Virus record (IMG/VR): IMGVR_UViG_3300037067_006488
Coordinates: 1-64,000 of that record
DNA length: 64,000 nt
Source of the DNA: a virus
Lineage: Duplodnaviria; Caudoviricetes
Strand: one strand, 5' to 3'
Under the pieces are notes generated by a model that searched no databases, was not told where the DNA came from, and saw only the letters and a list, made by a program, of their open reading frames with translations. The translations under genes were made by a program, and so were the position numbers. Below are positions 24,174-51,009 of the stretch, piece after piece; position 1 is the first letter of the stretch, and each line of letters opens with the position of its first letter.

Positions 24174-24849
24174 CTCTTTTAATTTTATCTATTACATCAA
24201 GCGATCCGTTTAGTAAGGCATCTGTTGCCTTCTCCTGCCAATCCGTAGATAGCATTGTAAGGGCTTCTTGTCGGTTTGTAAAGAATCCCGACTCTAACAA
24301 TAAACCCATAGCACCGTGTTTCTCCGCAAGTCTTAGCATCTTCCAGCTCTCCTCTTTATCGTATTCGTTTTCTTTCTCCCTGTTGATTCTAAACCTAAAT
24401 CCAAAGTTATACAGATGTGGGTAATAGATATTAGCAAGGTAGTCGCTATCATTAAGCGTCTTTGTCGTCCATATCTCTACCCCGTTAGCAGATGTGTTTG
24501 TCGCTGCGTTACCGTGTATAGAAAGCACTGCATGGGTATATGCGGGATAAGCCTTAACAATCCTTTCTATTTTCTGTCCCCTGACATCTAAAGATTCGTC
24601 GAAGTTAGATATAGTTGTAAAGGCATGGGTTATGTTCTTCTTCATAAACTTCTTCGCAAGGAGTTTTACGATGTCTCTATTAAAACACCCTTCCTCGAAG
24701 ACGAAATCTTTGTGATCGTACATCTTGGCGGGGGCTGTTGTGTACTTGCCGTTTATCCTTCCGCCGTGCCCCGCATCGAGGATAAACATAACAGTGGGCT
24801 TGTCGTACTCTTGGGAAACCCAAGCATCATAATCTATAAAATTTGTCAT
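24151..24849 (-). CDS. endolysin, N-acetylmuramoyl-L-alanine amidase (Amidase_3)
   Basis: ILDAGHGG, FEEG, LSIHGNA, LLESGF zinc-amidase motifs. Confidence 0.92.
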   Translation of the reverse strand: MTNFIDYDAWVSQEYDKPTVMFILDAGHGGRINGKYTTAPAKMYDHKDFVFEEGCFNRDIVKLLAKKFMKKNITHAFTTISNFDESLDVRGQKIERIVKAYPAYTHAVLSIHGNAATNTSANGVEIWTTKTLNDSDYLANIYYPHLYNFGFRFRINREKENEYDKEESWKMLRLAEKHGAMGLLLESGFFTNRQEALTMLSTDWQEKATDALLNGSLDVIDKIKRDGGIRTT

Positions 24850-25824: not shown

Positions 25825-25859
25825 AATAAATAAAATTTAAGTTTAACATTAATGCAGGA

Positions 25860-25867
25860 CAAATATA
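25860..25867 (-). promoter_or_regulatory. Bacteroidota -7 promoter element TATATTTG driving the lysis operon
   Basis: Located between the upstream terminator and ATG 25824. Confidence 0.55.
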
Positions 25868-25885
25868 CGAAAAAGGATTGGGATA

Positions 25886-25918
25886 GAAAAATAAAGCGGG
25901 GTGTTTTTTACCCCGCCC
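25886..25918 (-). terminator. intrinsic terminator ending the fibre cluster transcript
   Basis: GCGGGGT/ACCCCGC stem, followed on the - strand by TTTATTTTTC. Confidence 0.75.
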
Positions 25919-25978
25919 CTACAATAAAAACATATCAGCGTTATATCGTCTGTTGGTGTGTTGTGTAGATTAGGTTCA

Positions 25979-27838
25979 TTATAGAACAGTTATCGCATTC
26001 TTACTGTTGTTCTTTATCACATAATATATTATTACCGTTGGTGTTGTAAGACTACTATCATAATTTGCGTTTATTGTAATTACATTAGTCCCAGTTGTCA
26101 CCGACCATGAACCAGTTAACGTACCTGCTGAAACAGCATCATCTTCGGCTGTGCTTGCAAGTTCGATTGTCCCCGTATAACTTGCTGCTTTGTTGACATA
26201 TTGATATTTAACTATCCCGCTTATTGCTTGCATATCTGTCCCTTCAGTTGCGGTAATGGTATATTCAACAATTCCACCGCACATTCCTAATGTGGGTAAT
26301 GCAATGGTGGCTATTCCTGTGGCCGATCCGTCTGCTAATACTTTACTACCAGTAATAATTCTATCCACATTTGCTCCTGCGTGCATGACCCCGATTTTAA
26401 CATTACTTTCTTCACTTGTATTTGTTACATTAGTATGTGACCAACTTATCTTTCCTGCCATTCTTTCGTTTCCGGTTGCACTCTGAGCATATAAATCAAT
26501 TGATCCCCCAATCCCTGCTGCTGCTGTACCAGAACTAAGGCGAGATATTTTAATTTGACTTGTAATAGTATTTGTAGACGATGGATAACTTTGGAAGTCT
26601 GCTATTCTTGCTCCTGATGTGGTAGACATCCACCCAGCCAACCCAGATGTAGAGCTAAAATAGCCTCCGTAACCACTTACTGAAACACCCTGAACGCCTC
26701 TACCGCCACCTGAATTTAAACCATATACCGAACTCTTAGTGGCTGCTGCACTTGCTGATGTATTCGCATATAGCGCATAATCTAATTTACTGTAAGCAAA
26801 TAATCCATATAAGGAATCCGAACCAGAGTATGATCCTGATCCCTTTCCATAATTATAATACCATGCTCCGTATTTTGTATTATCAGTTGATATTGTTTGT
26901 GCATATATACCAGTCCCGTTTGTTGATTCTGCTTTAAGACCATATCCGTTGGTTGATCGACCTAAACCTCCTGTTTCGTGTGTGGATATAGCTATAAATC
27001 CAGGGCCGTAAGTACTTGTTGCAGATAATCCTCCGGTTAAATTACCAACAAAATTTCCACCATAATCAAATGTAGATGTAGCTCTTATACCATACTCTGT
27101 GTCACCATAAGCATCAATGGCCGGATAATTCAAGGCCGTTAATATAATCTGTGCTTTATGCGGTGAATATAATTTAAAACTTCCCGTTACATTATTAGTG
27201 GTAGTCCACGCTGTTCCATTGGTAGAATAAGCATGCATCGCCGTCCCCTCATTCTTTGTGTCTAATGAAATAGTACCACCAGACGGAGCAGCACTTCTCT
27301 GCATAACTATCCAATAACTTGTGCCTGCAACTAAATTTTGATTTGTAGTCTGTGTTCTTACTTCTTTATATGTTTTATCAAGATAACCATATCTCGCATT
27401 CTCTTGAATAACCCCAACTTTAGTTCCCGGAACACCAGCATTATCTGAATATATCCACATATACCAATAATTTGTAACATTTGTTATTGTCCCTGTTCGT
27501 TTAGCAAAAACACCAAACGATAGGATAGATATATTACTTGTCGGTGTGAACTTAAACGCTTCATAAGTATGAGCAAATTCCAAGTCAGTGCCTGTGTTTG
27601 CGCTGCCATCCAAAGCGACTATTTCAGAATGTGTGATCGTTAGGTTTTCTTTATCAACACCAGTACCATCTAAAGTTAGGTCTCCTGTTATATTCCCCGC
27701 ATTTATTGTAGCCTGTCCGCTTGTTTCTAACTGACTTCTTGTATATCCATTATTGTTGCCACCTATGCTTATTACTTGTTGTGCTTTTACGGTTAATACA
27801 GAAAATGATAGTATAAATAAAATAATTCCTGTTTTCAT
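25979..27838 (-). CDS. signal-peptide-bearing tail-fibre-like protein (Gly-rich beta repeats)
   Basis: MKTGIILFILSFSVLTVKA|QQ; repeated G.YG.S..G.G units; alternative start 27859. Confidence 0.75.
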   Translation of the reverse strand: MKTGIILFILSFSVLTVKAQQVISIGGNNNGYTRSQLETSGQATINAGNITGDLTLDGTGVDKENLTITHSEIVALDGSANTGTDLEFAHTYEAFKFTPTSNISILSFGVFAKRTGTITNVTNYWYMWIYSDNAGVPGTKVGVIQENARYGYLDKTYKEVRTQTTNQNLVAGTSYWIVMQRSAAPSGGTISLDTKNEGTAMHAYSTNGTAWTTTNNVTGSFKLYSPHKAQIILTALNYPAIDAYGDTEYGIRATSTFDYGGNFVGNLTGGLSATSTYGPGFIAISTHETGGLGRSTNGYGLKAESTNGTGIYAQTISTDNTKYGAWYYNYGKGSGSYSGSDSLYGLFAYSKLDYALYANTSASAAATKSSVYGLNSGGGRGVQGVSVSGYGGYFSSTSGLAGWMSTTSGARIADFQSYPSSTNTITSQIKISRLSSGTAAAGIGGSIDLYAQSATGNERMAGKISWSHTNVTNTSEESNVKIGVMHAGANVDRIITGSKVLADGSATGIATIALPTLGMCGGIVEYTITATEGTDMQAISGIVKYQYVNKAASYTGTIELASTAEDDAVSAGTLTGSWSVTTGTNVITINANYDSSLTTPTVIIYYVIKNNSKNAITVL

Positions 27839-27865
27839 TACTATAAATATATTCTTCATAACATC

Positions 27866-29695
27866 CTAATTTAATTGTATCCTTATATCCGTACCCTGGT
27901 TAATAATACTGTCAACTCCAAAGCCTATCCTTCCCGGTGGTGGTGGATTCGGATTACTTGCCTCTGTCACCGTTACTGTCCACTCCTGAGTTGATTCATC
28001 CAGTGCTGTCACCGTGTAAACAACCGGAGAAGTAAAGTCTGTTGCTGTTCCGCTTGTAGGTGAAATTGTCGCTCCTTCTGATACTGTTATCGTAGGTTGT
28101 AATGCTGTTACTGACGTGCCGTATTCTACTTCGATACTCACAGTATGATTTGCGGTGTCTATTGTGGCTGTGCCTGTTTGTTGAGTGAATATGAAAGTTA
28201 GGATGTTGTTGTCGGTGGTGTCAAGAAACCCATATTCCGAGTAACCCAAATCGGGAGCTGAACCAAAGAATGTTAATACCACTCCTGACGAATCCGATTC
28301 AGGGATTTGTATGCCTCCGTCTATTAAATCAGAACCTTCTTTTAGTTTTAGGAAGGTTATATCGGGCAATGCTCCCCCCGCCTTTCGGGAAGCTGTCATT
28401 TGAGCCACTCCCTGAACTGAATCAGTTAAAATAAAATCATCATCGGTTACGGTGAAATCTAAAGATAAACAGGACTTAGGCACGCTTCCAATATCACATG
28501 AATCGAAAGTATTATTTGATTCTGTGTATGCTTGCCAAAAAACAGCATAATAAGGTCTCATGGCAGCATCAAATCCTAAAGGTTCATAAGATATATTATT
28601 CCTGTAAACACTCATAGGGTAAAGACAATCATTACTGCTTGCTGAAAAATTACCCGTATTCCTATATGCTGTGTTGTTATAAAGTAAAGAACCGTCTTTA
28701 TAATATGGATCATAGTCAGACTGTCCGAATCCAGCTCCTGTATTAAAGGCAGCTATGTTGTTTCTTAAAATCCTGTCGTAACCAATGGAATCCCCTAAAT
28801 GCAATACTCCTTCACCATCTATATACGCACTGTCGCCCCTTGCTGCTCCGAATTTAAACCCGGTTCCATCCCTTGCTCCAATAAATCCATGTAAAAATGA
28901 CCAGCAATCTTTAAATAAAAAATCCCCACTGCCGCTAATATCGAATCCGTCATCTGTACAGTTCCATGCCCTGCATCCTATCCATTCAAGATAACCACCC
29001 GCTTCACTATCACACTTCCAACCATCCGCACCATTACCCGGGACCACACTCAGGGAATCATTACAGTTATAAGCATCACAATTAATAAAACGAGTAGTAT
29101 CTGTTTCGATTCCATTAAATCCACAAGTGCCGGAATAGGCAAACCCACGACCGCCAATATTATAAGCAATGCAATTTTCAAATGTCATGTTGTGAGGATA
29201 CCAACCTGCACCAAAGCCAGAGGCAACGCTGCCATTCAGGGGTTGTAATACATTTCTTAATGTAAGCCCTTTGAAATACAAATAGCCTGTATTATTTAAG
29301 TCAATACCGCTGTTTGATGTGTTGCCGGTAGTGTCAACGTTAATGCAATCTAAAATCGGAGTTTCACCGGGATATGCAAAAAAACAAATAGGATTTTCCG
29401 CTGTCCCTGTATGGCCTATGCCGCTTGATGGACTATAATATGTTGTATGGATATATACAACGCTATTGCCGTAAGAGTGTTCTGAGGGATACCAAATCCC
29501 TGATCTAAAATATACCGTATCCCCTGCATCTGCCGTTTCAAAAGCGTGCTGCCAAGTAGCCCAGGGAAGGCTTATATCCGTGCCCGTGTTTTCATCACTT
29601 GCATTTGCGTTATATGCCGTATCCTGCACATAATATGTAGCTGAATTAGCGATTAAAGAAAAGCAGACAAATAATATAATTAGTTTTAGTTTCAT
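27866..29695 (-). CDS. signal-peptide-bearing PL9-like right-handed beta-helix lyase/depolymerase with a C-terminal DUF5018-like Ig domain
   Basis: ATYYV..PWATWQHA..AGDTVYFRSG; NGADGWK..GCRAWNCTDDGFD..GFKFG; ATISPTSG..DFTSPVVYTVTA. Confidence 0.8.
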   Translation of the reverse strand: MKLKLIILFVCFSLIANSATYYVQDTAYNANASDENTGTDISLPWATWQHAFETADAGDTVYFRSGIWYPSEHSYGNSVVYIHTTYYSPSSGIGHTGTAENPICFFAYPGETPILDCINVDTTGNTSNSGIDLNNTGYLYFKGLTLRNVLQPLNGSVASGFGAGWYPHNMTFENCIAYNIGGRGFAYSGTCGFNGIETDTTRFINCDAYNCNDSLSVVPGNGADGWKCDSEAGGYLEWIGCRAWNCTDDGFDISGSGDFLFKDCWSFLHGFIGARDGTGFKFGAARGDSAYIDGEGVLHLGDSIGYDRILRNNIAAFNTGAGFGQSDYDPYYKDGSLLYNNTAYRNTGNFSASSNDCLYPMSVYRNNISYEPLGFDAAMRPYYAVFWQAYTESNNTFDSCDIGSVPKSCLSLDFTVTDDDFILTDSVQGVAQMTASRKAGGALPDITFLKLKEGSDLIDGGIQIPESDSSGVVLTFFGSAPDLGYSEYGFLDTTDNNILTFIFTQQTGTATIDTANHTVSIEVEYGTSVTALQPTITVSEGATISPTSGTATDFTSPVVYTVTALDESTQEWTVTVTEASNPNPPPPGRIGFGVDSIINQGTDIRIQLN

Positions 29696-30432
29696 AATCC
29701 ATATTTAGTAACCAAATAATTATATATTGCCGTTTCATCATCATCGGTGTCGTCAATGCTTCTTAAAATAAATTCTTTAATTGAAAAGTTACCATAAACG
29801 GCCTGTGTAGATATTCTTCCTAAGTGAATACCATCCATCACCCCCGTCCCGAAATTACCCGTTACGGCTGTTTCTGTGTCTATTTGTATTTTAGATGAAG
29901 CACCGCTAAAAACAATTCTCAACACCACCCATTCACCTATTGCCGCATAAGACAACTCGGATGAAACGCCCCCCGAATAGGCAAGGATATTGGGCGTAGT
30001 CCCGTATTGTTGAATAACTCCATTAGCATTTGAAAAGCCACTAAACAAACCTTCACCGTCCGTCCATGATTCTTGCCTGATAACTGCATAAATCTGGTGT
30101 GGCTGAGATAATCCGGTAATTTCAATTACCGCTCTGTCATTATCACCGTCAAAGATTACAGAATCACCCCGGAATATCGGTCTGCCGGTCTGCCCAAAAT
30201 TTGAAAGCAAATGATAATCATTACCTGATATATCATTCCATACTGTTAAGGAATCATTTATTTCTGTAATATTATCCGCACTTGCAACATACCATGCCAC
30301 CGTATTCGCATTAAGAACATCAGGAATCCCGTCATCAACCGCCCCGCTCCCCCTATAAAACGGATACCTCCCTATCTGCCCGAACATAAGGACAGACAAG
30401 AATAATAAGGGAATTGTTATTAATCGTTTCAT
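29692..30432 (-). CDS. signal-peptide-bearing ConA/LamG-like lectin-fold protein
   Basis: MKRLITIPLLFLSVLMFG|Q; VAWYVA..WNDISGNDYHL..FDGDND..IYNYLVTKYG. Confidence 0.72.
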   Translation of the reverse strand: MKRLITIPLLFLSVLMFGQIGRYPFYRGSGAVDDGIPDVLNANTVAWYVASADNITEINDSLTVWNDISGNDYHLLSNFGQTGRPIFRGDSVIFDGDNDRAVIEITGLSQPHQIYAVIRQESWTDGEGLFSGFSNANGVIQQYGTTPNILAYSGGVSSELSYAAIGEWVVLRIVFSGASSKIQIDTETAVTGNFGTGVMDGIHLGRISTQAVYGNFSIKEFILRSIDDTDDDETAIYNYLVTKYGL

Positions 30433-30435
30433 GGC

Positions 30436-31362
30436 TTAATATGTTGGTACTTTATATCCTGAAAGTGTAAGTATCAGTAATGACGGTTTATTCCCGGCAC
30501 TTACCCCGCTTATCGTACACCAAACAAACACACCGGGAGGGATAACAGCATTAGCAAAACTGGTATCATTATCTCCTGTCGTTATACTCGTTACCGTGTA
30601 AGCAGATTCATTTAAGTTTGTCGCTGAACCAGATTTAAAGGTTGCGTGCCAAGATACTTGTACCGCCACCGTTTCCGTTCCACTCCCTTCAGCAAGTACA
30701 CCCCGTAAAGCTGTTACGTGTATTGTGTCGCTTCCCGCATTATAAAATGAACCTGCTATTGCATTGTTGGTGAACGAAGCCGTGTCAGCCGCTAATCCAC
30801 TGCCAAGCCCAAAGACAAATATCGGTATCGTATCTGTCTTTAGATTTATGTCATTTGTATTCAACGGAATTGCGGAAAACACCCCGTCATCCATTCCGAA
30901 TATAGTATCCACACTCGCCACCTCATTTGCACCTATCGTAAAGGCCGCAAGGCTGTCATGGACTATTGAAGATACATTTGCCGCCGTCTGGAAACTCGTT
31001 AAATCTCCGGCTACTGTGAAGGCAGAATCAACTAAGGCTGATTGTGTAACATACGTACTTAAATCTCCAGCCACAACAAACGCTGAGTCCACAAGTGCTG
31101 TTTGCTTTACATAATTTACAACTGTATCATGGACAATCCCTGATACGGTAGCGGCATCAACTCCACTTACTTCTAATAAATCAGAATAAGAGGCTATACC
31201 TCCCACCGCTCCGGTGGTGTCTGCCCAATGCAACACATTAGCTGAGTCCGCAGCCCATGAAGCGTCTGAACTGGTTGAACTGCTCCCGCTAATACTGATA
31301 ACCTGCTGCCCGAATGATATACTGCATATCAGGCTTAATACAATAATAAGTTTTGTTTTCAT
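30436..31362 (-). CDS. signal-peptide-bearing fibre-like protein with an internal 20-aa tandem repeat
   Basis: MKTKLIIVLSLICSISFG|QQ; YVxQxALVDSAFxVAGDL twice. Confidence 0.72.
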   Translation of the reverse strand: MKTKLIIVLSLICSISFGQQVISISGSSSTSSDASWAADSANVLHWADTTGAVGGIASYSDLLEVSGVDAATVSGIVHDTVVNYVKQTALVDSAFVVAGDLSTYVTQSALVDSAFTVAGDLTSFQTAANVSSIVHDSLAAFTIGANEVASVDTIFGMDDGVFSAIPLNTNDINLKTDTIPIFVFGLGSGLAADTASFTNNAIAGSFYNAGSDTIHVTALRGVLAEGSGTETVAVQVSWHATFKSGSATNLNESAYTVTSITTGDNDTSFANAVIPPGVFVWCTISGVSAGNKPSLLILTLSGYKVPTY

Positions 31363-31365
31363 GCG

Positions 31366-31617
31366 TTAATCGTTTTTCTTTATCTTAAACAACCCCAAAG
31401 TTAACCCTTCTATAAGAGTGTCCTTTGCCAACAACAAGGCATACCCTAACATAAATACAGGTATTATATCCCTGACGGGGAATAATGCCGGAGAATCGTT
31501 AATAATGGCCTTAATATCGGCATATATCATGAACAAAGCATATAGGGTGATCGGTATACCCATTAACGTTGTTCTCCAATTCTGAAACCGTCTCTTTATG
31601 TTCTCTTGTTGGCTCAT
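31366..31617 (-). CDS. putative holin (2 TM)
   Basis: NWRTTLMG motif followed by two TM segments; start assigned to ATG 31617. Confidence 0.6.
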   Translation of the reverse strand: MSQQENIKRRFQNWRTTLMGIPITLYALFMIYADIKAIINDSPALFPVRDIIPVFMLGYALLLAKDTLIEGLTLGLFKIKKND

Positions 31618-34600
31618 GGTGTATATATGTTTTCGTCTATCGTACCTATCGTCCCTGAAACATAGAACAGAACTTCCGAATCGAAAGCACCTACCGATAT
31701 GCTTCCCGATACGGTGTCTCCGTCTGTGTCTATAAACACACAATTCCCTAAACTAAAAGAATGAGACGCATCCGACCAGTTGCTAAACACCTGTGTAAAG
31801 TCAGCCTCCGATATTCCCGTAACATCGTCGAATGTCCAGTTGTTCTGATTGTAGGTTGACCCTAATTCCCATCCAATATAAGTACCCCATTCTGCAAGAG
31901 TATAAAGCTGCTTGTCTCCCCAATTATGCCTTGACCCTATTATCTTACTGTCGCTCCTGAAAGGATTGAAATAATAGTTGTTGTTAATTGTCATACCCGT
32001 AAAGGATGGTGTATTGTCGTCGCCCCAAGTAAAGCCCGTTGATCCTGTCTCGTCCGTAGCAACAACAGTGTTGTACTGCCACGTCAGATAGTTGGCGTTA
32101 CCGTCGAAAGGCCCCTCTTTGTAAAAACCCGATTGATAACTGTAATAACCGTCAACATCGTGATCTACCGACAAGTTATAGGTAAAAGAGTTGTTGTTGG
32201 AGTTGTATTGGTTAAAGAAACCAACGCCTACACCTACGGTTGTGTTGTTTGTAACGGTAGTATACGCTTGTTTTTCGTCAAGATATATCCCCTGTGTAAT
32301 AGGATAATTCCTGCGCATAAACGAATAATCCGTACCCTGATTAACGACTAAGTTGTTGTTAATGCTTTTGGCTTTGTTTAACATAAACTGATGTACGTAG
32401 ATACCCCCTCCGTCTGTTAGATGTTCGCAAAAGTCGGTAATGTAATTGTTGGCAATAGAAAACGTGCCGTGTGCCAAACCGTCGTAAGCAATAGCCGCAA
32501 TACCCGAATAACCCGTATGTGCAATATAATTACGTTGATACAACAAATTAGATTTGGGGTTCTTAGAATAAAGTCCGTAATACCCTGCAATAGCATCGTC
32601 CCATCCGGGTGTAGAGCCAACACCGTCTATCCAACACCCAACTACTTGTTCGTCTCCCGCTAAACTACCCTGGAAGAATATACCTGCACCGTTAGCGTTC
32701 ATAACAGTGTCGTACCTGTGATAAATGTCGTAGGAGTTATAAATATATATCCCTGCATAAGCAGAATAGTCCGTATTAACATACTCTGTTGTTATATCAT
32801 GGGAGTTCTTGATAGATATATTATACTTGTGCGAACCCCATGTGCTTATGTCTTTTAATGTTATGTTGTAGGAGTCATCTATTGATATGATAGAGTCTTC
32901 TACGGGAGCATATATTGTTAACGAAGAAGGATTTGTGGTGTGATACAAAGTGATAGTCTGTGTCGCATAGTCGTACTTCCACTCCCCGTTCTGGTCAGGC
33001 GTAGTGTTAAACAACGCATAACCAAGTTTAGTCCCTGATGTGTAATGTTTAAGACTATATCCGCTTGTAAAATAAGATGATGTTAGGTTAAACCTTGTTG
33101 CTGTATTGCTGGCAATTTTAACTTTGTCTGCCAACCAATCCTCTACGTTAATATAAGCATAAGCATTTTGATATTGGTTCGTTGTCATACTAAGGTCTGT
33201 ATCGTCAAAGTAAGACAAGAAGTCAGAAGCCACCCCTTCCATTTCATACCATCCCGTATTAGGAGTGCGGGCATTTTGATACCATGTGCCGTTAATAAAC
33301 AAACCGTTAAGGAGTGCTATTCCGTTATCGGTATCTTGGTTTTCGTAATAATCCTTTTCTGTGTCAGGTAATACCACGTCACTCTTAGTCCATAGGTTAG
33401 TGCCCGCACTCGACCAACTTGTTAATTGTTTTGTGCCGTATATAGTAGGACTTATATTACCGTACTTATTCCAACCTACGAGTGTTATATCGTTAGCACT
33501 GTGTATAATAATATTACCGTAGTAAGCAGTATCGCTTATCGCTATTGTTGTAGCTGTAGCCGCCCCTGCAATAATAGAGTTAAGTTCTGTTAAGGTTTGT
33601 TTGGGGGTTGACGCCGTTAAGCCGTCGTTAGCATCGTTCCCGTCAACAGCACAGAAATAGTAATCTGCGGTAACAGGAGTTGTAGGCACTGCTGCACCGT
33701 ATTCTTTATATCCCATACTTGGTGTTGTGCTCCACTGTACGCCGTATAAGTCGTATTCGATAGCAAGGTCTGTGCCTGCATGATAGGCAGGGCTGTATGT
33801 GTTTATCTCGTAAGCAGAATGTCTGCCGTTGACAAACAAAGGATCACCCTCTAAAGAATGCGTCCCCCTTGTCCAAGAACCGTCATCAGGAAAGAATAAA
33901 TTGTAGTCTTCTTCAACATCCCCGTTGTTGTCGTAAATCGGGTAGTCATCATATCCACTTGTGGTATGGATAATATTATTCTTAACTTTTACACCCGAAC
34001 ACCCGCTCCAAACATATATTCCCCTTGGGGTATTGGCGTTGTACGTGGCATAATCTACAATAGTATTGTTGTATATTTCAGCATTGTCGGTAACGTTGTT
34101 TAGTTCTATTGCGGCAAACCAACTGTTGATAATAAGATTGCCGTATATCTCTAAATTAATATTACCGTTAGTTACGTTATATTGTGGCTCTCCTGAAGTG
34201 TTGGGGGTATAAAAACCACGCGTACCGTTCTTAATTACGTTGTACCTAATAATACATTCAGGAGCAAGATATACTGATAAACCCGCCTGTCCCCAATCGT
34301 TGTACGCGTTATAACACTCCATCCTGTTGTGTTCGATAATAGAACCCGATGCAGTGCCGTTATAATTAGCAATATACTTTAAACAATGTTTATATGTCGT
34401 ATTGCTGCGGTCAAGAAGATTATATTTAAAATGACAGTAGTTGCTAAAATATGCGCTTGATGCGCCCCAATCCATACAGTCGCCGTTACCCGCAGACCCA
34501 CGAGAGTTAACATTATAAACATAATTACCTTCTACTGTTACCATGTCGTCAGAACTTGCGCCCCCCCATCCAAAAACGTATACGCCATCTTCAAGAGTCT

Positions 34601-36131
34601 CGTGAATAAGACAATTCTTCAAACCGCCTCCATATATTTGGGCTATACGCATAAGTTGATAGGTTCTTGTTGCGGCATTAGATCGTATCTCGCAATTGTC
34701 AAATGTCACATTATAACAAATACCGTGTGTAAAAACAGTAGCCAATCCTCCTGCTGAACTATATAAATCTATATCCCGTATTGTAATATTAGACCTGTTA
34801 GTTATATCTATTAACCCGTAAGAATCCCCTAAAGAAATTGCTGCTTTTAATATGGGTCTTGTGCCTACACCGTAAGCACCGTAAAACACGTTGTCCTGTG
34901 ATATGTATTCAGGCGTGGTTACACTAAACTCTTGTCCTCTTTTTAAGAAATAATATCTTCCTGATACCTGTGTGAAGTTCATATTGGTGTAATCACCTCC
35001 AACCCCAACAAGATAAGTAAGAGAAGAGTCTATAACCGTTATGTTTACCGTCCCTGTGCCTGTAAGGAACCCGTCGGTAACAGAATATGTCAGTGTATAC
35101 GATCCGTCTGCGGCGTGTGCCTGTATCTTAACGGTAGAATCTGCTATCGCAAAATAGTCTGCACCCGTACCCCCTGTCTCTGTCCATGTTAACGTTCCTC
35201 TCTTTTCGTAGTTACGGTTGTAATTAAGTTCAAGAACAACATCGTCGGCTGCATTTTCTTCTGCGATAGTTACATCTTGATCGTGAGCAATAGGGTATGT
35301 GCTGCTGATTATATTCTTTGCAATAGCATACCTGAAAAGACCCGCTTGCCTTATTATCTGTTGTGCGCCTGCCCTCATAAACCAAACGTGTCTTCCTGTT
35401 GTCGGGGTATATGTCCCCTCTCCTCCGCCTCCGCCTCCGGCAACACCTAATATAAAGTTGGTTGTGCCGTTATCGTATAGGCTGTCTATCTGTGCGTCTG
35501 TTAACGCATAGTTGTAATATTGAAAGTTATCTATATATCCGCTAAAAGAACTCCATCCATCGGCAGTTAAGTTGCCTATTGTTAGAGCATTTGTGTAATC
35601 TACAGGGCTGTTCATTATGCTGTCCGTAGTCTGATCTACGCCGTCAATATATATACGCCCGTATTGACTTGTTGCGCTATATTTAATAAATACTGCGTGT
35701 GTCCATGTGTTGTAGCTATATACACCCGTTCCTGTTCCGGCATTATCTGTAGCATACGCATCCCTAAAATACACTCTTCTGTTAGCTGCATCTAAATAAG
35801 CCTTTAACCCGTTAGCCTGAAAAGCAAAAGGATAGGGAGCCCCCGTTGTCTGTCCGTTACGAAACCAAAAGCTGATTGTTAAACCAGCCCCCGTATTAAG
35901 ATTAAGTTCTGTTGTTGTTGTTGCGTCGTCCTGCTGTCCGTTACGAAAATAAATAGAGTGTGTTGCCTCTTCGTAATATGTTGAGCTGTAACTTACCCCT
36001 CCGGTATTAAAAGAATAGTTACCCATGCTATCCACCGCCTCGTTATTAAAGAACACAGCCATTTGCGGTGGCTGCCCTTTAACATACGCTAAAGCAAAAA
36101 AAAAGAATAATATCGTTATATATCGTTTCAT
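31614..36131 (-). CDS. 1505-aa signal-peptide-bearing adhesin/depolymerase: LamG + cadherin-like Ig + two right-handed beta-helix regions
   Basis: MKRYITILFFFFALAYVKG|Q; TISFWF..WTH..YIDG..GYIDNFQYYNYAL; G6 linker; YTLTYSVTDG; Asn-rich parallel beta-helix repeats. Confidence 0.8.
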   Translation of the reverse strand: MKRYITILFFFFALAYVKGQPPQMAVFFNNEAVDSMGNYSFNTGGVSYSSTYYEEATHSIYFRNGQQDDATTTTELNLNTGAGLTISFWFRNGQTTGAPYPFAFQANGLKAYLDAANRRVYFRDAYATDNAGTGTGVYSYNTWTHAVFIKYSATSQYGRIYIDGVDQTTDSIMNSPVDYTNALTIGNLTADGWSSFSGYIDNFQYYNYALTDAQIDSLYDNGTTNFILGVAGGGGGGEGTYTPTTGRHVWFMRAGAQQIIRQAGLFRYAIAKNIISSTYPIAHDQDVTIAEENAADDVVLELNYNRNYEKRGTLTWTETGGTGADYFAIADSTVKIQAHAADGSYTLTYSVTDGFLTGTGTVNITVIDSSLTYLVGVGGDYTNMNFTQVSGRYYFLKRGQEFSVTTPEYISQDNVFYGAYGVGTRPILKAAISLGDSYGLIDITNRSNITIRDIDLYSSAGGLATVFTHGICYNVTFDNCEIRSNAATRTYQLMRIAQIYGGGLKNCLIHETLEDGVYVFGWGGASSDDMVTVEGNYVYNVNSRGSAGNGDCMDWGASSAYFSNYCHFKYNLLDRSNTTYKHCLKYIANYNGTASGSIIEHNRMECYNAYNDWGQAGLSVYLAPECIIRYNVIKNGTRGFYTPNTSGEPQYNVTNGNINLEIYGNLIINSWFAAIELNNVTDNAEIYNNTIVDYATYNANTPRGIYVWSGCSGVKVKNNIIHTTSGYDDYPIYDNNGDVEEDYNLFFPDDGSWTRGTHSLEGDPLFVNGRHSAYEINTYSPAYHAGTDLAIEYDLYGVQWSTTPSMGYKEYGAAVPTTPVTADYYFCAVDGNDANDGLTASTPKQTLTELNSIIAGAATATTIAISDTAYYGNIIIHSANDITLVGWNKYGNISPTIYGTKQLTSWSSAGTNLWTKSDVVLPDTEKDYYENQDTDNGIALLNGLFINGTWYQNARTPNTGWYEMEGVASDFLSYFDDTDLSMTTNQYQNAYAYINVEDWLADKVKIASNTATRFNLTSSYFTSGYSLKHYTSGTKLGYALFNTTPDQNGEWKYDYATQTITLYHTTNPSSLTIYAPVEDSIISIDDSYNITLKDISTWGSHKYNISIKNSHDITTEYVNTDYSAYAGIYIYNSYDIYHRYDTVMNANGAGIFFQGSLAGDEQVVGCWIDGVGSTPGWDDAIAGYYGLYSKNPKSNLLYQRNYIAHTGYSGIAAIAYDGLAHGTFSIANNYITDFCEHLTDGGGIYVHQFMLNKAKSINNNLVVNQGTDYSFMRRNYPITQGIYLDEKQAYTTVTNNTTVGVGVGFFNQYNSNNNSFTYNLSVDHDVDGYYSYQSGFYKEGPFDGNANYLTWQYNTVVATDETGSTGFTWGDDNTPSFTGMTINNNYYFNPFRSDSKIIGSRHNWGDKQLYTLAEWGTYIGWELGSTYNQNNWTFDDVTGISEADFTQVFSNWSDASHSFSLGNCVFIDTDGDTVSGSISVGAFDSEVLFYVSGTIGTIDENIYTP

Positions 36132-36135
36132 ATCT

Positions 36136-37398
36136 TTATTTTCTAAATAACTTGAATCGTTTCTTTTTTATAGGCGTTGCTCTCTCTAATGCTTCTATTC
36201 TTGCCTCTAACTCCGCTTGTTTTTTCTCTACGTCTGCTATATTGCGGAGGTTATATTCTATGCCCGCTTGTAAAGCCTGAAGATAACGCATAGGGGGTAG
36301 TTTGTCCACCATAAATGTATTGTATATAGTACCGTCTACCTGATAATACCACCGTACCTCGTAGTTAAGCATTTCTTCAAGGCGTTGTGTCGCCGTTCTT
36401 ATCTTATTCATTTCAAAAATAAAGGATGCTGGTTCTGTTGTGGCTGTGTCTATTGCACTTGTACTTGTGCCTGTCAGCCATGAACTTGACATATCTCCGA
36501 AGATTGTAAGATATACAGAGTCCCTTATTGCAACAGTGCCGTCTACATCAAGAGCTTCACTTGGAGATGTTGTCCCTATACCAATATCCCCCGTTGTTCT
36601 TTCTACAAAGAAAGAATTACCTGCGTCTGAGGTGATTGTTAATCCTCCGGTAATAGCTTTAAAATCTTGTGATCCATTCCCGTCGTCTGTGTTCTGTATT
36701 CTTATTGCGGGACTTGCTCCGTATATATGCGTAATAGTAGCGGGAGAGTGAGTTCCTATCCCAATATTCCCTAATAGCGTGAGATTACCGTTTCCAAACA
36801 TTTGTATATTGTTTGTGCCTGCTGTATTTTGTACCGACAAACTATAATTATTATCGTTGCCGTTCTTAAAAACAACTCCATATCCAGTTGCGCTTGTGTT
36901 ACTAAACAAACCGATAACATCTGCCGCAATTGACTTTTGTGCATGGAATAAATAAACAGGAGCTATCCCTATACCAACATCTTTAGTGGTAGATAGAGTG
37001 GTGTCTGTTGTCGTCCAATCCCCGACATCTATATTTGATAAATCGTATTGTGTTGCTATTGTAGAAGTGGTGTCAGCCCAATGTAAAAGATTAGCGGAGT
37101 CGGCAGCAAATATAGGATCAGATTCTACACTTACAAACCCCGCAAGAGAATCGCTTACAACAGAAGCAGCTACAGATTCGGCAGTATTTAAAACATAGGT
37201 TTTAATAGCCTGAGAAGACGGTAATGTTTTGTCGCTTGTTGTCGTCAAGGTAGTATCTATTACAACTCCCGTCACCCATCCGTTAGTCTCGTCAAAATAC
37301 ACGGAGTCTATGTTGATTGCGCCCATCTGGAACACCGCCTGTGAATAAGCCGTAGAACCTACAACAAACAACGCTAATATGAATAATATCTTCCTCAT
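36136..37398 (-). CDS. signal-peptide-bearing tail-fibre-like protein (GIGT..P repeats, C-terminal coiled coil)
   Basis: MRKILFILALFVVGSTAYS|Q (ATG 37398); VGIGIAP, NIGIGTHSP, DIGIGTTSP; KQAELEARIEALE. Confidence 0.75.
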   Translation of the reverse strand: MRKILFILALFVVGSTAYSQAVFQMGAINIDSVYFDETNGWVTGVVIDTTLTTTSDKTLPSSQAIKTYVLNTAESVAASVVSDSLAGFVSVESDPIFAADSANLLHWADTTSTIATQYDLSNIDVGDWTTTDTTLSTTKDVGIGIAPVYLFHAQKSIAADVIGLFSNTSATGYGVVFKNGNDNNYSLSVQNTAGTNNIQMFGNGNLTLLGNIGIGTHSPATITHIYGASPAIRIQNTDDGNGSQDFKAITGGLTITSDAGNSFFVERTTGDIGIGTTSPSEALDVDGTVAIRDSVYLTIFGDMSSSWLTGTSTSAIDTATTEPASFIFEMNKIRTATQRLEEMLNYEVRWYYQVDGTIYNTFMVDKLPPMRYLQALQAGIEYNLRNIADVEKKQAELEARIEALERATPIKKKRFKLFRK

Positions 37399-37727
37399 TT
37401 TATCAACTGAATTAAGTCCTTTAATGTTATCATGTCGGCAAGGGATACAACAGTAAACATAAGAACAACCATGTAAACAACAGACTGTACCGGATGTTTC
37501 GACACCCATGCTGAAACCACACTGTCTTGCTTTACACATCGTATATCGTCCTCTGTCTTTGTCACCCTGCCGTTTGTCTTCTTTTGGTGTTCTATCATAT
37601 CGTCCTGCTTCTCGAAGACGGATTTAAACCTTTCTTCCATTATCCCTTCAAGTCTGCCGACAATAGCATCCAAATAATCCCTGTCTTGCATATTCATAGG
37701 TAGATACCGTGTAAAGTCATTAGACAT
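37395..37727 (-). CDS. small coiled-coil membrane protein (holin/XhlA-like)
   Basis: Coiled coil containing TNGRV followed by one C-terminal TM. Confidence 0.55.
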   Translation of the reverse strand: MSNDFTRYLPMNMQDRDYLDAIVGRLEGIMEERFKSVFEKQDDMIEHQKKTNGRVTKTEDDIRCVKQDSVVSAWVSKHPVQSVVYMVVLMFTVVSLADMITLKDLIQLIK

Positions 37728-38179
37728 TAATAATATATTTTGATACGTCCCGATGTTACGCTATTCCATACGATTGTGAAAGCCACATACCCACCCGGCC
37801 AATCTTTGTCGGTTATAAAAGACTGACGAGCAACAGTGTATCTTGTGCCGTCACTCTTGCGTATTGTCTTTGCGTTTGTTGTTGCGTCGAGGATAACACT
37901 ATCTGCCGACGTAGAGCCACTCCATTGCAGATCGCCAGCCCACACTCCGTAGGCATCCGCTAACCCTATCTTCAGCACTGCATCGTCTGCATTTAGATCG
38001 GAATAGTCTACAATTATCGCATTTACATCCTGCGCTACGTTAAGGATGAATGTTGTTGTGTCGTAGGCGTAATACGTGGCTGCACTCCAATTAGCCTCTA
38101 TATCACCTATCCTTTGTGTCTGTGCTTTAACACCTAACGCACACAACATAAATAAACCGAGAACAATTATCTTTTTCAT
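37727..38179 (-). CDS. signal-peptide-bearing small beta protein
   Basis: MKKIIVLGLFMLCALGVKA|Q (ATG 38179, 20 nt after TAAATTTG). Confidence 0.75.
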   Translation of the reverse strand: MKKIIVLGLFMLCALGVKAQTQRIGDIEANWSAATYYAYDTTTFILNVAQDVNAIIVDYSDLNADDAVLKIGLADAYGVWAGDLQWSGSTSADSVILDATTNAKTIRKSDGTRYTVARQSFITDKDWPGGYVAFTIVWNSVTSGRIKIYY

Positions 38180-38199
38180 ATCTACGTTTTTGTTGGTTA

Positions 38200-38207
38200 C
38201 AAATTTA
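38200..38207 (-). promoter_or_regulatory. late promoter element TAAATTTG heading the signal-peptide gene cluster
   Basis: In the intergenic gap, 20 nt upstream of ATG 38179. Confidence 0.6.
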
Positions 38208-38232
38208 GTACACACCTTCATCTTGATATTAG

Positions 38233-41200
38233 TTATTTACTGTATTTACCGAACCTTAATTTATATCTTGCCTTGTCTGCTGCATCGTTAGCGTATTGGG
38301 CAACCCTGTCCTGAACTTCTGCTTTATCCATGTTCATAAGTTCTTTATAATGTTCTTCCAGTAAGTCTTTTAACAACTGCCCCCTTAGTTTGGCATATTG
38401 ATAATACTCCTCTTCATTAAGCAACCTGGTATTCCCTTCTGTATCGTACATAACTATACTCTTACTTGGCTTATTAAGCCAAGCCTCGTTGTCTACAATC
38501 AACTGCCATATAGGATCGTCTTCTTCTTTGTTTGTCCATCTGTTCATATTGGCGACAACAGGTTCTCCTAAAGCATTTGTCATTTCGTTAAGTTTGTTTC
38601 TTGCAATAGGAATGTCTCTGTACATCTGTTCCCATGTATCGTTAGCTTCTTTCATGGGCATATTGTAGGTCTGTTGTATCTTTCTACTTACCTGTGTTAC
38701 AATATTGGGAACAACAAAACCCTTACCCACATTCTGCAAATACTTTTCAAAATACCCTGACGCTTTTGTTGGGTCTGACTCATTAAACGAAGAAAGAAAC
38801 TCAGACACACCACGCAAGAAGGTAAGGTCTGTAAAATATTGCGCCGTATTCCATAGTATTATTTCAGTCCTCTTTAACATATCTTTATCTTCAAGGGTTC
38901 TGCCCTGATAGTTTCTGGCATCCATTATATTTCCAACAACAGTAAGAGGAATAGCTAAAGGCGTGTTTTGATAAGAATACCATGTATCTCCTATTTTAAC
39001 ACTATACTTCTGCCATCCAGTTTCCTGAAGGTTATAGTTTTTAACATAATCGTTAGTACCGTTAGCTGTTATTTCTATTGTCGGTTCGTCTTGATCGTCC
39101 CTCTTAGTGGCAAGCCAAAACAAAGTAAGCCCTGCGATAGTTCCTAATGTAGCCGCTATTATTTCCTTGGTTCTTTCTTCTTGTGTATACTTTCTTGTGT
39201 ATTTAGTACCCATATCTTGCTTGCCGCCCATACTCCCTCTTGCTGCACGAACAAAACCATAAGGAGAATAGTCAAGATACGTATTAGCAACGTTAGATAA
39301 TATGTTAGTAAATGGGACAATAAACTTTATGGGCTTAACATCCCCAAACTTTACTTGATTAGCAATATTAGCGACAAGGTCTGTAACCCGACCTATCCTG
39401 CCTTCAGGGGGGAAGTTAAACGTTCCTCTGCTTGCTATATTGTTGGCGTCATCATGTAGTTCATCGGGAAGCCCTTGTTCCATGATTTCCCACATTCTTC
39501 TCCTTATATCTATCCCTTTTAGCCCCTCTTTCTTTGCCTGCGCAATAGCCTTCTCTTTTAATTCTTTTGTTTTAAGAAGTTTCTCGCTTATATATCTTTC
39601 TACTTCAGCCTTACTCATACCAAGACCCTTGGTCTGTCTGTGTACGAGTTCATGCAACCTCATACCCTGAAGCCCATAATAAAAGAAGCTATCTACACCC
39701 ACCATAACACGGGGCACATACCTATGTAATTTAAGAGGATTCCATTGTTTGCCGAACAATTTAAACCCTTCGTATGATTCTAATGCTGATGGCGTTGCTT
39801 GTCTTTCCGTAAACTCGAACTTAGCACCCTTCATGGGGTCGTAACCTGTTTTAAGAACAGACCATAACTCCAACAATCCCCTACCGTACCCATCATACAA
39901 TCCCCTTAATAGGTCTAAAGTAGATTTAGGGCTATATATCGCAGACTTAACCAACTCCATCGCTGTGTTAGCTGTGTTAGCTAAGAAGTTAAGTTCTTGT
40001 GTCTTGTATCCTGATAGTATATGAGCATACCACACAGACATTGCCAGGTCTGCTAATTTGATGCCTTTTATCCTTGCCTCATATCCAAGCAGGTCTGTTG
40101 TTGCATTAAACTTCTGGAAACCGTCAGGTGCTTTCTTGACCCTATCGGCTAACCGTTTAAGTTCATCAAGTTCTTTGTCTGTCAGTTTTCTACCAGTATT
40201 CTTTTCAATGTCTGCAATAATCTTATCGGTAAGAACCCTCGAATTAAGTTTAGACCATATTGCATAAGCCTGTACACCCTGTCCTAATTCAGTGCCGTAC
40301 ATTGTCATAAACTCGGCTATGTCAACAGACTTCTTGGCTGCATCCTTCCATTCACTACTTTCAGGATCAGCTTCGTTTAGTATTTTATTGTAGGCGTTAA
40401 TAACGGCCTCACCAAGAGCAACCCTGACTCTCGGAAATAAACCGTTATTCTTATCCTTTACCATAAGGATAGACTCTGTTAGCCCCTTCTCTTGGATAAT
40501 AACATCGGCTTCGTGCATTGTCACTTTATTTCCCGTAGGAATATACATCTTAGCATCTTCACTAAGCCCCGTCTTTATCTCGTCAGACACGTCTTCGTCT
40601 TCCAATAACCTCTTAGCAAACTTTCTCTGTTTGCCCCTCTCTACGTAAATGTCTCGTATAAGATTACGGTTGTTATCTATGTAATCTGAAATCGTTTTAA
40701 GATTCTCTGGTGTTAATGGCTTTTGTTTAAGATAGTCTTTTATCTTCGTTATAAGATCGTCAACACTCAATGCTCCTAATTCAAACACGTCTTCGGCTAT
40801 CTGCCGCATTGCCTTTAGCGGATCGGGTCTTTGTTCTCCCATAAGAGATGTACTGCCACCAATCCCAGTAATAAGATTATCAAAATTATCGGCAATACGT
40901 TTCTTTAACTCTGCTTTCCTTGCTTCGTTTGGTGCTTCCTGCGTAGGTTGCGTGACCTGACCTTCTCCGGTAACTTCTTGTTGTCCGGCGTCTCCTCCTC
41001 GAACCTCCGTGCTAATCGTGGGTTCGTTGCCCAAAGGAATCTCCGTTGGGACGCTGACTTCATTGGCATTTGGTTGTCCTCCTATCCTCTTTAAGTATTG
41101 TTCTTGTAATTTCTGCCCTTCCTCAAAAGACTCAACATAGGGTGTTTTATTGAGGGCATCTTGTACATTACCAAACTTCCCATAACGAGAACTTAGTGTA

Positions 41201-51005: not shown

Positions 51006-51009
51006 ATCC

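What the first reader, a model, noticed from the sequence alone, without database searches (positions are those of the whole stretch)
25979..38179. Cluster of seven fibre/adhesin/depolymerase genes that all carry Sec signal peptides
Every large gene between the ejection proteins and the lysis module starts with a basic-hydrophobic-small-residue signal peptide: VKA|Q, AYS|Q, VKG|Q, SFG|Q, MFG|Q, ANS|A and VKA|Q. Six of seven expose Gln at +1, matching the Bacteroidota Q-rule (pyroglutamate after SPase I). They occupy the tail-fibre locus, have fibre, lectin and beta-helix folds, and share a late-type promoter and a terminator. I see no lipobox or T9SS C-terminal domain. Tailed virions assemble in the cytoplasm, so fibres normally lack signal peptides, and no clearly cytoplasmic fibre gene is present in this arm. 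Inference: receptor-binding appendages are exported, matured in the periplasm and joined to particles at lysis, or they build a phage-encoded envelope structure on the infected cell.
Basis: partly seen in the sequence, partly recalled or inferred. Interest (0 to 1): 0.88.

Follow-up and report, generated by a model that had tools for sequence, protein, structure and literature searches.

The report
Phage tail fibres carrying export signals
An uncultured short-tailed phage of Bacteroidota puts its host's own secretion signal on all seven of its fibre, sugar-binding and sugar-cutting proteins, so its host-recognition gear probably matures outside the cytoplasm, where tailed-phage particles are normally built whole.

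Summary
Seven consecutive minus-strand genes (25979-38179) begin with a classic Sec/signal-peptidase-I leader. Six expose Gln at +1, the Bacteroidota Q-rule. No other large gene on the 77-kb contig has such a leader, and no leaderless fibre candidate exists.

The leaders are functional. Gene spacing of -4 to +6 nt leaves no other start. In protein A's family, 17 diverged representatives all keep a leader, and the +1 Gln is one of only two invariant columns. Homologues of B, F and G also keep leaders.

The proteins look like receptor-binding gear:
- D is predicted to be a trimer.
- C and F are beta-helix enzymes.
- A is a CBM-like beta-sandwich.
- Leaderless homologues of G sit at the tail-fibre position of other phages.

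In 67 related phages, 15 of 61 large proteins at this locus carry leader plus Gln. In the cultured relative Cellulophaga phage phi18:3, the three leader-bearing proteins at the same place are recorded as found in virions by MS/MS.

Best reading (about 0.5): the fibres are exported, matured in the periplasm, and join particles once the holin opens the inner membrane. Export is well supported. Virion membership is supported by analogy only. The joining step is inferred.

This scan has already found the same pattern on many other Bacteroidota phage genomes. My literature searches found no description of it.

The parts
37727..38179 (-). A, 150 aa. Leader cut VKA|Q, then a CBM-like beta-sandwich. 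It is the first gene after the ejection protein.
   Evidence: N-terminus. The family has 17 representatives, all with a leader, and Gln20 is invariant. AlphaFold model pLDDT 84, pTM 0.72. Weak fold matches to carbohydrate-binding modules and tailspike or baseplate domains, TM 0.3-0.4.
37395..37727 (-). m110, 110 aa, no leader, one C-terminal membrane helix. It is conserved as the neighbour of A.
   Evidence: Sequence. A homologue follows the A homologue in L006, and a 124-aa gene follows it in L084. No family match.
36136..37398 (-). B, 420 aa. Leader cut AYS|Q. Fibre-like protein ending in a coiled coil.
   Evidence: The closest homologue, P0002, keeps both the leader and the mature N-terminus. 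More distant relatives carry PF13884, the fibre chaperone domain. The structure model failed.
31614..36131 (-). C, 1505 aa. Leader cut VKG|Q. Laminin_G_3 lectin domain followed by right-handed beta-helix regions.
   Evidence: Pfam PF13385 at 6.8e-18 and PF13229 at 6.3e-06. The lectin region resembles the leader-bearing 553-aa protein of L002.
31366..31617 (-). m83, 83 aa, two membrane helices. Probable holin, embedded in the cluster.
   Evidence: Sequence. In L006 its homologue lies in the lysis cassette next to the amidase. The function is inferred.
30436..31362 (-). D, 308 aa. Leader cut SFG|Q. Trimeric fibre with a C-terminal head.
   Evidence: Homotrimer of the mature part: score 0.83 (ipSAE, the model's own interface confidence), best of 3 controls 0.00. 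The mark was reached by 21 of 30 proteins solved as pairs and 0 of 23 solved as single chains. Runs agree in at least 39% of contacts and the partner's pLDDT is at least 57. D shares the mature start QQVISI with G and the motif AADSAN.LHWADTT with B.
29692..30432 (-). E, 246 aa. Leader cut MFG|Q. Domain of unknown family.
   Evidence: Residues 52-246 are 32% identical to the C-terminal domain of a leaderless 590-aa protein at the same locus of L029. No Pfam match.
27866..29695 (-). F, 609 aa. Leader without Gln at +1. PL9 pectate-lyase-like beta-helix plus a Bacteroides-type Ig-like domain.
   Evidence: PF22842 at 1.1e-11 and DUF5018. NCBIfam PelN at 5.7e-29. PDB sequence matches to 1ru4 and to Bacteroides surface glycan-binding proteins. 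34.5% identical over 620 aa, leader included, to the 1002-aa protein of L007.
25979..27859 (-). G, 626 aa. Leader cut VKA|Q. Fibre protein with a choice-of-anchor R domain.
   Evidence: NCBIfam NF041539 scores 31.3 bits against a cut-off of 30. Six homologues have a leader plus Gln. Two leaderless ones sit at the tail-fibre position of other phages.
38200..38207 (-). TAAATTTG, a Bacteroidota-type -7 promoter box ahead of A.
   Evidence: The same motif precedes many genes of the window. Its function was not tested.
25893..25919 (-). Intrinsic terminator after G.
   Evidence: Ten-pair stem with six G-C pairs, followed by a T run.
38233..43824 (-). Context: 1863-aa polyvalent (ejection) protein directly upstream.
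   Evidence: PF18827 LPD14 at 1.3e-08. 85 homologues. A distant match is annotated 'internal virion protein D'.
46686..50288 (-). Context: 1200-aa crAss-type muzzle protein.
   Evidence: crAss_MUZ_C matches only weakly here, E 0.028. The positional orthologues match well. Its C-terminal region resembles phi18:3 gp115.
24151..24849 (-). Context: amidase endolysin without a leader.
   Evidence: phrog_435 endolysin at 2.7e-13. N-terminus.

Best explanation
The seven genes are the phage's host-surface recognition set: trimeric fibres, lectin or CBM-like modules, and beta-helix polysaccharide lyases. They are made as pre-proteins with a host-type Sec leader. They are transcribed late as a unit with the probable holin. 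SecYEG exports them, and host signal peptidase I cuts them to expose Gln, which the host glutaminyl cyclase turns into pyroglutamate. They fold in the periplasm, where B, D and F may also receive the host's O-glycan. Capsid-tail particles are built in the cytoplasm without these appendages. The two meet only when the holin opens the inner membrane, and the fibres then dock on the tail, as purified fibres and spikes of model phages do in vitro. Status of each step: the leaders, their conservation and the fibre-class identity are shown here. Export and cleavage are inferred from the Q-rule. Virion membership rests on analogy with phi18:3. The time and place of docking are inferred.
For: The leaders are real and under selection. 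Seven of seven genes have one, and no alternative start is available. The A family has 17 representatives at 26-48% identity, all with a leader, and the +1 Gln is one of two invariant columns. Homologues of B, F and G keep a leader.

The trait belongs to the family. In 67 distinct relatives, 15 of 61 large proteins after the ejection gene carry leader plus Gln. Of 209 upstream core genes, 4 are flagged, none of them with Gln.

The proteins are of the receptor-binding class. The D trimer scores 0.83 against a best control of 0.00 (21 of 30 solved pairs and 0 of 23 single chains reached the mark). C and F contain beta-helix and lectin domains. Leaderless G homologues lie at the fibre position of a siphovirus and of a second phage. 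A leader-bearing G homologue lies between baseplate and lysis genes of a third phage. The 1228-aa and 2324-aa leader proteins of L020 and L038 are 67% identical over their first 383 residues and then diverge.

There is no other fibre candidate on the 77-kb contig.

Cultured Cellulophaga phage phi18:3 has muzzle and ring homologues of this family. Its only fibre candidates, gp085-087, all carry a leader plus Gln and are annotated as structural or tail proteins 'based on experimental MS/MS proteomics'.

The sequon D[ST][AILVMT] occurs 42 times against 19.6 expected, and is individually enriched in B, D and F. The motif is that of PMC8550257.

The Q-rule, and the stabilising effect of pyroglutamate on extracytoplasmic proteins, are described in PMC5837995 and PMC10653852.
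Against: No experiment bears on this phage itself. The seven proteins show no sequence similarity to phi18:3 gp085-087, so the virion evidence is by analogy. MS/MS of a purified lysate can also pick up abundant co-purifying proteins.

The related, well-studied crAss001 builds fibres without leaders, and the first 26 residues of its gp22 plug into a tail hub. No hub homologue was recognised here.

Some leader proteins at this locus in relatives look like plain secreted enzymes, for example a C10 peptidase with a dockerin domain.

Some relatives carry both leaderless and leader-bearing large proteins, which would fit a division of labour between virion fibres and free enzymes.

Docking after the membrane is breached leaves little time before dilution into the medium.
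Confidence: 0.5

Rival explanations
1. They are exported helper proteins that are not part of the virion. The seven proteins collect in the periplasm late in infection and are released at lysis as stable free lyases and lectins. These strip or mask capsule, slime or receptors on neighbouring cells and debris, while the particle binds its host through the muzzle protein alone.
For: Export is well supported. F is a close relative of secreted PL9 pectate lyases. G carries a domain typical of secreted surface proteins. A relative has a leader-bearing C10 peptidase with a dockerin domain at this locus. Several relatives have no fibre genes after the ejection gene at all. No tail-hub homologue was recognised. 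In crAss001 the muzzle is thought to contact the cell surface (PMC10172136). P. gingivalis prophage genes that follow the Q-rule have been read as modifiers of the host surface (PMC10367356).
Against: The phage would then have no receptor-binding fibre in 77 kb. B and D are non-enzymatic fibres, and D is a predicted trimer, with no obvious role as free proteins. Leaderless homologues of G occupy true fibre positions. The phi18:3 leader proteins were recorded in virions by MS/MS. Periplasmic proteins of a diderm have no route outward before lysis, because no T9SS or lipoprotein signal is present.
Confidence: 0.25
2. They are virion fibres that are never exported. The leader-like N-terminus stays in the cytoplasm, either because export is shut off late in infection or because the segment serves as a hydrophobic docking or membrane-tethering peptide. 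The fibres then join particles in the ordinary way.
For: In crAss001 the first 26 residues of fibre gp22 are the part buried in the tail hub. The virion MS/MS evidence from phi18:3 fits this reading as well as it fits export. B and C each have a Met five residues after the predicted cut.
Against: A docking peptide has no need for a basic start, a 12-15-residue core, small residues at -3 and -1, or Gln at +1, yet these are exactly the conserved features. Seven different proteins would all have to dock through near-interchangeable hydrophobic peptides. The sequon enrichment only makes sense outside the cytoplasm. The Met after the cut site is not kept in the B homologue.
Confidence: 0.15
3. The leaders are an annotation artefact, and the true starts lie after the hydrophobic segments.
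For: B, C and F have an in-frame ATG or GTG within five residues after the predicted cut.
Against: The genes abut with gaps of -4 to +6 nt, so the leader codons would be left as open, in-frame, hydrophobic non-coding DNA seven times over. A, D, E and G have no nearby start. Leaders are conserved in homologues from unrelated contigs.
Confidence: 0.02

Closest known systems
Cellulophaga phage phi18:3 gp085, gp086 and gp087 (NC_021794; Pachyviridae)
   Same: Three consecutive large proteins sit just before the lysis genes. Each has a Met-Lys start, a hydrophobic core and a small residue before Gln. They are the only fibre candidates of a roughly 71-kb podovirus whose muzzle and ring proteins are homologous to those of this family. 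They are annotated as structural or tail proteins from MS/MS.
   Different: No detectable sequence similarity to the seven proteins here. There are three genes rather than seven. The record says nothing about the leaders, and my literature searches found no paper that does.
Tail fibres gp22-gp26 of Bacteroides phage crAss001 (PMC10172136)
   Same: A podovirus of Bacteroidota with a muzzle protein, ring proteins and a multi-gene cluster of tailspike, lectin and hyaluronidase-like fibres next to the lysis genes.
   Different: None of gp21-gp26 has a leader. gp22 docks through its own first 26 residues in a hub made of gp38 and gp39. No hub homologue was recognised here.
Bacteroidota Q-rule substrates of signal peptidase I (PMC5837995, PMC10653852)
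   Same: A Sec leader whose cleavage exposes Gln, which is cyclised to pyroglutamate and stabilises extracytoplasmic proteins. Six of the seven proteins here fit, as do all 17 members of the A family.
   Different: Those substrates are cellular envelope and secreted proteins. These are late proteins of a lytic-type tailed phage at its fibre locus.
Q-rule genes of unknown function in Porphyromonas gingivalis prophages (PMC10367356)
   Same: Phage-encoded proteins with a predicted SPase I leader and Gln at +1. That paper noted them as a sign of adaptation to host secretion.
   Different: They are five genes of unknown function in temperate siphophages, read as modifiers of the host outer membrane, not as the phage's fibre set.
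Exported proteins of model phages: lambda Bor and Lom, T5 Llp, spanins, and the leader-bearing coat proteins of filamentous phages (from my own knowledge, not checked here)
   Same: Phage proteins that use the host Sec pathway. Filamentous phages show that virion proteins can be exported before assembly.
   Different: The first group are small accessory or lysis proteins and are not virion parts. Filamentous phages assemble at the membrane and have no cytoplasmic capsid.
PL9 pectate lyases Pel9A and PelN
   Same: F aligns over most of the beta-helix (PelN 5.7e-29; 1ru4), and like them it has a secretion leader.
   Different: F scores far below the family's equivalog cut-off (101 against 740 bits). 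It carries an extra Bacteroides-type Ig-like domain and is phage-encoded. Its substrate is unknown.

Membership tests
Sec / signal peptidase I leader, Bacteroidota Q-rule type | Short basic n-region with no acidic residues | tested here: met
   All seven start Met-Lys or Met-Arg and have two basic and no acidic residues before the core.
Sec / signal peptidase I leader, Bacteroidota Q-rule type | Hydrophobic core of about 7-15 residues, shorter than a membrane helix | tested here: met
   Cores are 12-15 uncharged residues, and the best 10-residue Kyte-Doolittle mean is 2.6-3.6.
Sec / signal peptidase I leader, Bacteroidota Q-rule type | Small residues at -3 and -1, and Gln at +1 | tested here: met
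   Six of seven have Gln at +1. E has Met at -3. F has no Gln. Gln is invariant in the A family.
Sec / signal peptidase I leader, Bacteroidota Q-rule type | Called by a trained predictor (SignalP 6), and cleavage seen in the protein | not testable with these tools
   No such predictor is on hand. No proteomics exists for this phage.
Tailed-phage receptor-binding fibre or tailspike | Trimeric fibre or beta-helix architecture | tested here: met
   The D homotrimer scores 0.83 against a best control of 0.00 (21 of 30 solved pairs and 0 of 23 single chains reached the mark). C and F contain beta-helix domains. B could not be modelled.
Tailed-phage receptor-binding fibre or tailspike | Encoded at the end of the late structural genes, next to lysis genes, and variable between relatives | tested here: met
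   Gene order. Relatives differ in content at this locus and share shuffled modules.
Tailed-phage receptor-binding fibre or tailspike | Homology to proteins at proven or canonical fibre positions | tested here: met
   G is 40-45% identical to leaderless proteins that follow the distal-tail genes of a siphovirus and of another phage.
Tailed-phage receptor-binding fibre or tailspike | Physically present on the virion | not testable with these tools
   The only evidence is by analogy with phi18:3 gp085-087, annotated from MS/MS.
T9SS cargo | C-terminal sorting domain (type A or type B) | tested here: not met
   No match in Pfam at E 0.01 or in NCBIfam at E 0.1 for any of the seven.
Bacterial lipoprotein (signal peptidase II) | Lipobox with Cys at +1 | tested here: not met
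   None of the seven has [LVI][ASTVI][GAS]C at the end of the core. A true lipobox does occur elsewhere on the contig, at 76326.
crAss-like muzzle-bearing podoviruses (Crassvirales and the Cellulophaga phi13:2 / phi18:3 outgroup) | Muzzle protein, paralogous ring proteins and large cargo or ejection proteins | tested here: met
   crAss_MUZ and MUZ_C match the positional orthologues and match only weakly here. Four paralogous genes of 200-242 aa lie at 50292-53049. The polyvalent protein carries LPD14.
crAss-like muzzle-bearing podoviruses (Crassvirales and the Cellulophaga phi13:2 / phi18:3 outgroup) | Close similarity of terminase and portal to named members | tested here: not met
   The terminase is at most 24% identical to those of Flavobacterium and Cellulophaga phages. 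The portal has one weak match. The phage belongs to an uncultured lineage.

The most novel reading that the evidence does not exclude
In a broad set of Bacteroidota phages, including short-tailed, long-tailed and baseplate-bearing types, the receptor-binding fibres are routed through the host Sec pathway. They are trimmed to pyroglutamate and possibly O-glycosylated in the periplasm, and they attach to otherwise finished particles only after the holin breaches the inner membrane. That would be a two-compartment assembly route not described for any tailed phage.
Probability: 0.5. Interest if true: 0.9.

Novelty: new variant of a known kind. Interest (0 to 1): 0.8.

Why it matters
Textbook tailed phages assemble every virion part in the cytoplasm. 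If fibres of many Bacteroidota phages mature in the periplasm, several things follow:
- The last assembly step happens in a different compartment and at a different time.
- Fibres may carry host-type pyroglutamate and O-glycans, which affects their stability, antigenicity and recombinant production.
- Fibre supply would depend on host SecA, signal peptidase I and glutaminyl cyclase, which become new points of host resistance or control.
- Annotation pipelines that use a signal peptide to exclude structural proteins would mislabel these receptor-binding proteins.

The question is directly testable, because Cellulophaga phage phi18:3 and its host are in culture.

Tried and rejected
Searches that gave nothing useful:
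- PHROGs gave no match for any of the nine cluster proteins.
- tblastn against cultured phages found nothing for A, B or G, and only marginal hits for F.
- A single-protein scan of IMG/VR with the ejection protein found nothing; an alignment was needed.
- The full A alignment was too variable for a locus scan. A reduced alignment found one locus.
- PDB sequence searches were blank for B, C and G.
- ESM Atlas gave only unnamed viral clusters below the useful score.
- Searching genomes with the TnpB protein, to name the host, gave one 55% match on a small Saccharibacteria-labelled contig. This is uninformative.
- The paper behind the phi18:3 proteomics is not held, so the purity of that virion preparation could not be judged.

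Models and comparisons that failed:
- The AlphaFold model of B, from two sequences, reached pLDDT 32, so no fold search was run.
- The small leaderless proteins that follow the ejection gene in other relatives do not align with the A family.
- Module sharing between the 382-aa leader protein of L040 and leaderless proteins proved to be collagen repeats. I discount it.

Sequencing runs:
- No RNA holder is listed for the stretch.
- Laying contigs of two runs showed identical pieces in a landfill sample.
- The apparent joints in the source sample rest on sides under 30 letters, so I do not use them.

Ideas ruled out:
- Alternative starts.
- T9SS domains and lipoboxes.
- A cultured Flavobacterium podophage (elemoA) and crAss001 were checked for the trait, and neither has it.

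Full report
**What the window is.** The window is the first 64 kb of a 77,283-bp IMG/VR virus record. Its source is a groundwater metagenome. Identical pieces occur in a landfill metagenome from a different study. Genes from 22 kb to 64 kb run on the minus strand. In order they are:
- terminase (59836-62136) and portal (57186-59789);
- capsid genes and four paralogous ring-type genes of 200-242 aa (50292-53049), one of which resembles the SU10 adaptor;
- a 1200-aa protein whose orthologues in relatives match the crassvirus muzzle families (weakly here);
- two ejection-type proteins, then a 1863-aa polyvalent protein with an LPD14 domain;
- the cluster in question;
- a phosphoesterase, an amidase endolysin, an inserted TnpB gene and a two-helix coiled-coil protein.

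The host is almost certainly a member of Bacteroidota. The Q-rule is specific to that phylum (PMC5837995). The TAnnTTTG -7 box also lies in front of many genes.

**The observation.** All seven large genes between 25979 and 38179 start with Met-Lys or Met-Arg. Each then has a 12-15-residue uncharged hydrophobic core and a small residue at -1. Six are followed by Gln. Only these seven of the 57 curated genes in the window have that N-terminus. Two points make the starts secure. The genes abut with gaps of -4 to +6 nt. A, D, E and G have no other start within 40 codons. No lipobox or T9SS sorting domain is present. A strong terminator follows G, and a Bacteroidota -7 box precedes A. Two small membrane-protein genes interrupt the run. 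One of them (31366-31617, two helices) has its homologue in the lysis cassette of the closest relative, so it is probably the holin.

**Are the leaders functional?** Conservation says yes.
- An exhaustive profile-free search with A found 17 representative proteins at 26-48% identity. Every one has a leader, and the +1 Gln is one of only two invariant columns.
- The closest homologue of B keeps both the leader and the mature N-terminus.
- F aligns from residue 4 with a leader-bearing 1002-aa protein of a relative.
- Six of eight close homologues of G have a leader plus Gln.

I then fetched 71 IMG/VR loci through an alignment of the ejection protein. A rule-based scan of the 67 distinct ones gave these counts. 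Of 61 proteins of 350 aa or more that follow the ejection gene, 15 carry leader plus Gln, spread over 12 phages. Of 209 upstream core genes, 4 were flagged. All 4 belong to one unrelated family, and none has Gln. My scan prefers a Gln site when one is available, which inflates the Gln count somewhat, but not by this margin.

**What the proteins are.**
- A folds (pLDDT 84) as a beta-sandwich that resembles carbohydrate-binding modules only loosely.
- C has a Laminin_G_3 lectin domain and beta-helix regions.
- F is a PL9 pectate-lyase-like beta-helix with a Bacteroides-type Ig-like domain.
- The mature part of D is predicted to form a homotrimer. The score is 0.83 against a best control of 0.00. 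The mark was reached by 21 of 30 proteins solved as pairs and 0 of 23 solved as single chains. The runs agree in at least 39% of contacts, and the partner's pLDDT is at least 57. This supports binding but does not prove it.
- B is fibre-like, and its distant relatives carry the fibre chaperone domain. Its model failed.
- G is the most telling. Two homologues without a leader begin with an ordinary fibre N-terminus. They sit directly after the distal-tail genes of a siphovirus and in the structural block of another phage. A leader-bearing homologue sits between baseplate genes and the lysis cassette of a third, baseplate-bearing phage. The alignment shows that mature G is about as long at its N-terminus as the leaderless form, so the leader is an addition and not a replacement.
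- The leader proteins of L020 and L038 are 67% identical over their first 383 residues and then diverge. That is the usual pattern for fibres, with a conserved anchor and a variable tip.

Neither the rest of the window nor the remaining 13 kb of the contig holds any other fibre candidate.

**Are they on the virion?** Nothing here can show that for this phage. A lead from earlier findings of this scan pointed to a cultured relative, and I checked it myself. Cellulophaga phage phi18:3 is a 71-kb podovirus. Its gp114 and gp115 are homologous to the muzzle proteins of this family, and its gp112 to the ring proteins. Three consecutive large genes, gp085-087, lie just before its endolysin. All three start with a textbook leader followed by Gln. 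The GenBank record annotates all three as structural or tail proteins 'based on experimental MS/MS proteomics analysis'. The rest of that genome has no other fibre candidate. By contrast, the cryo-EM-verified fibres of crAss001 and the annotated fibres of a Flavobacterium podophage have no leader. The trait is therefore not general to Bacteroidota phages.

**Supporting detail.** The Bacteroidota O-glycosylation sequon (PMC8550257) occurs 42 times in the seven mature proteins, against 19.6 expected from shuffles. The density is 1.13 per 100 residues, against 0.31 in the other proteins of the window. B, D and F are individually significant. Part of the excess in B and D comes from internal repeats. 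The phage also carries a large glycosyltransferase operon, which other first-reader notes linked to this. I did not test that link.

**Weighing the readings.** Export is well supported. Given export, there are two options: fibres that join particles after the inner membrane is opened, or free helper enzymes and lectins.
- For the first: the fibre-class identity of B, D and G, the lack of any other fibre gene, and the phi18:3 record.
- For the second: a secreted-type C10 peptidase with a dockerin domain at this locus in a relative, phages that carry both leaderless and leader-bearing large proteins, and the absence of a recognisable fibre hub.
- A third option is virion fibres whose leader is never used. 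It does not explain why the conserved features are exactly those of a cleavage site.

I put these at about 0.5, 0.25 and 0.15.

**Novelty.** My literature searches found no description of leader-bearing tail fibres. The nearest is a remark on five Q-rule genes of unknown function in P. gingivalis prophages (PMC10367356). This scan has noted the same pattern on many other genomes. This window is an extreme case, with seven of seven.

Noticed in passing
window 22983-24173 (-): A TnpB/IS605-type transposase gene (phrog_506, 4.2e-116) is inserted in the lysis module, between the amidase and the coiled-coil membrane protein.
   Followed up: partly
window 31366-31617 (-): The probable holin (83 aa, two helices) lies inside the fibre cluster, between C and D. 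In the closest relative, L006, its homologue lies in the lysis cassette. So D-G, or the holin gene, moved.
   Followed up: partly
L085:2713-3117 (+): A leader-bearing member of the A family sits between the head-tail connector and head-closure genes of an HK97-type siphovirus. This small exported beta-sandwich therefore moves between unrelated phage types.
   Followed up: no
L088:10778-11866 (-) (record G002): A complete 72.7-kb relative encodes a leader-bearing 362-aa protein at the same locus, with a Peptidase_C10 start and a dockerin domain. It looks like a secreted-type protease rather than a fibre.
   Followed up: no
L098:5452-6600 (+) (record G004): A leader-bearing 382-aa protein with collagen triple-helix repeats lies at the fibre locus of another relative.
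   Followed up: no
L103:11786-12937 (+): In one phage a leaderless G-type fibre and a leader-plus-Gln beta-helix protein lie side by side, so both kinds can coexist in one fibre module.
   Followed up: no
window 36136-37398 and 31614-36131 (-): B and C each have an in-frame Met five residues after the predicted cleavage site. That could give a leaderless cytoplasmic form by internal initiation. The Met is not kept in the B homologue.
   Followed up: partly
window 27866-37398 (-): The Bacteroidota O-glycosylation sequon is enriched about twofold over shuffles in the exported proteins, and 3.6-fold over the other proteins of the window. B, D and F are individually significant.
   Followed up: yes
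window 10955-11431 (+): This 158-aa protein of unknown function is 50% identical to the gene directly upstream of the B homologue on contigs L002 and L003. Here it lies on the other arm, 25 kb away.
   Followed up: no
L086:13326-13712 (+) (contig 76326-76712, outside the window): A 128-aa lipoprotein with a true lipobox (LIGC) and a 138-aa leader protein lie among the early genes. They may be superinfection-exclusion or surface-modifying genes.
   Followed up: no
window 25400-38600: Pieces identical to the cluster occur in a landfill metagenome sequenced four years before the groundwater source, in a different study. The phage is therefore not confined to one site.
   Followed up: partly
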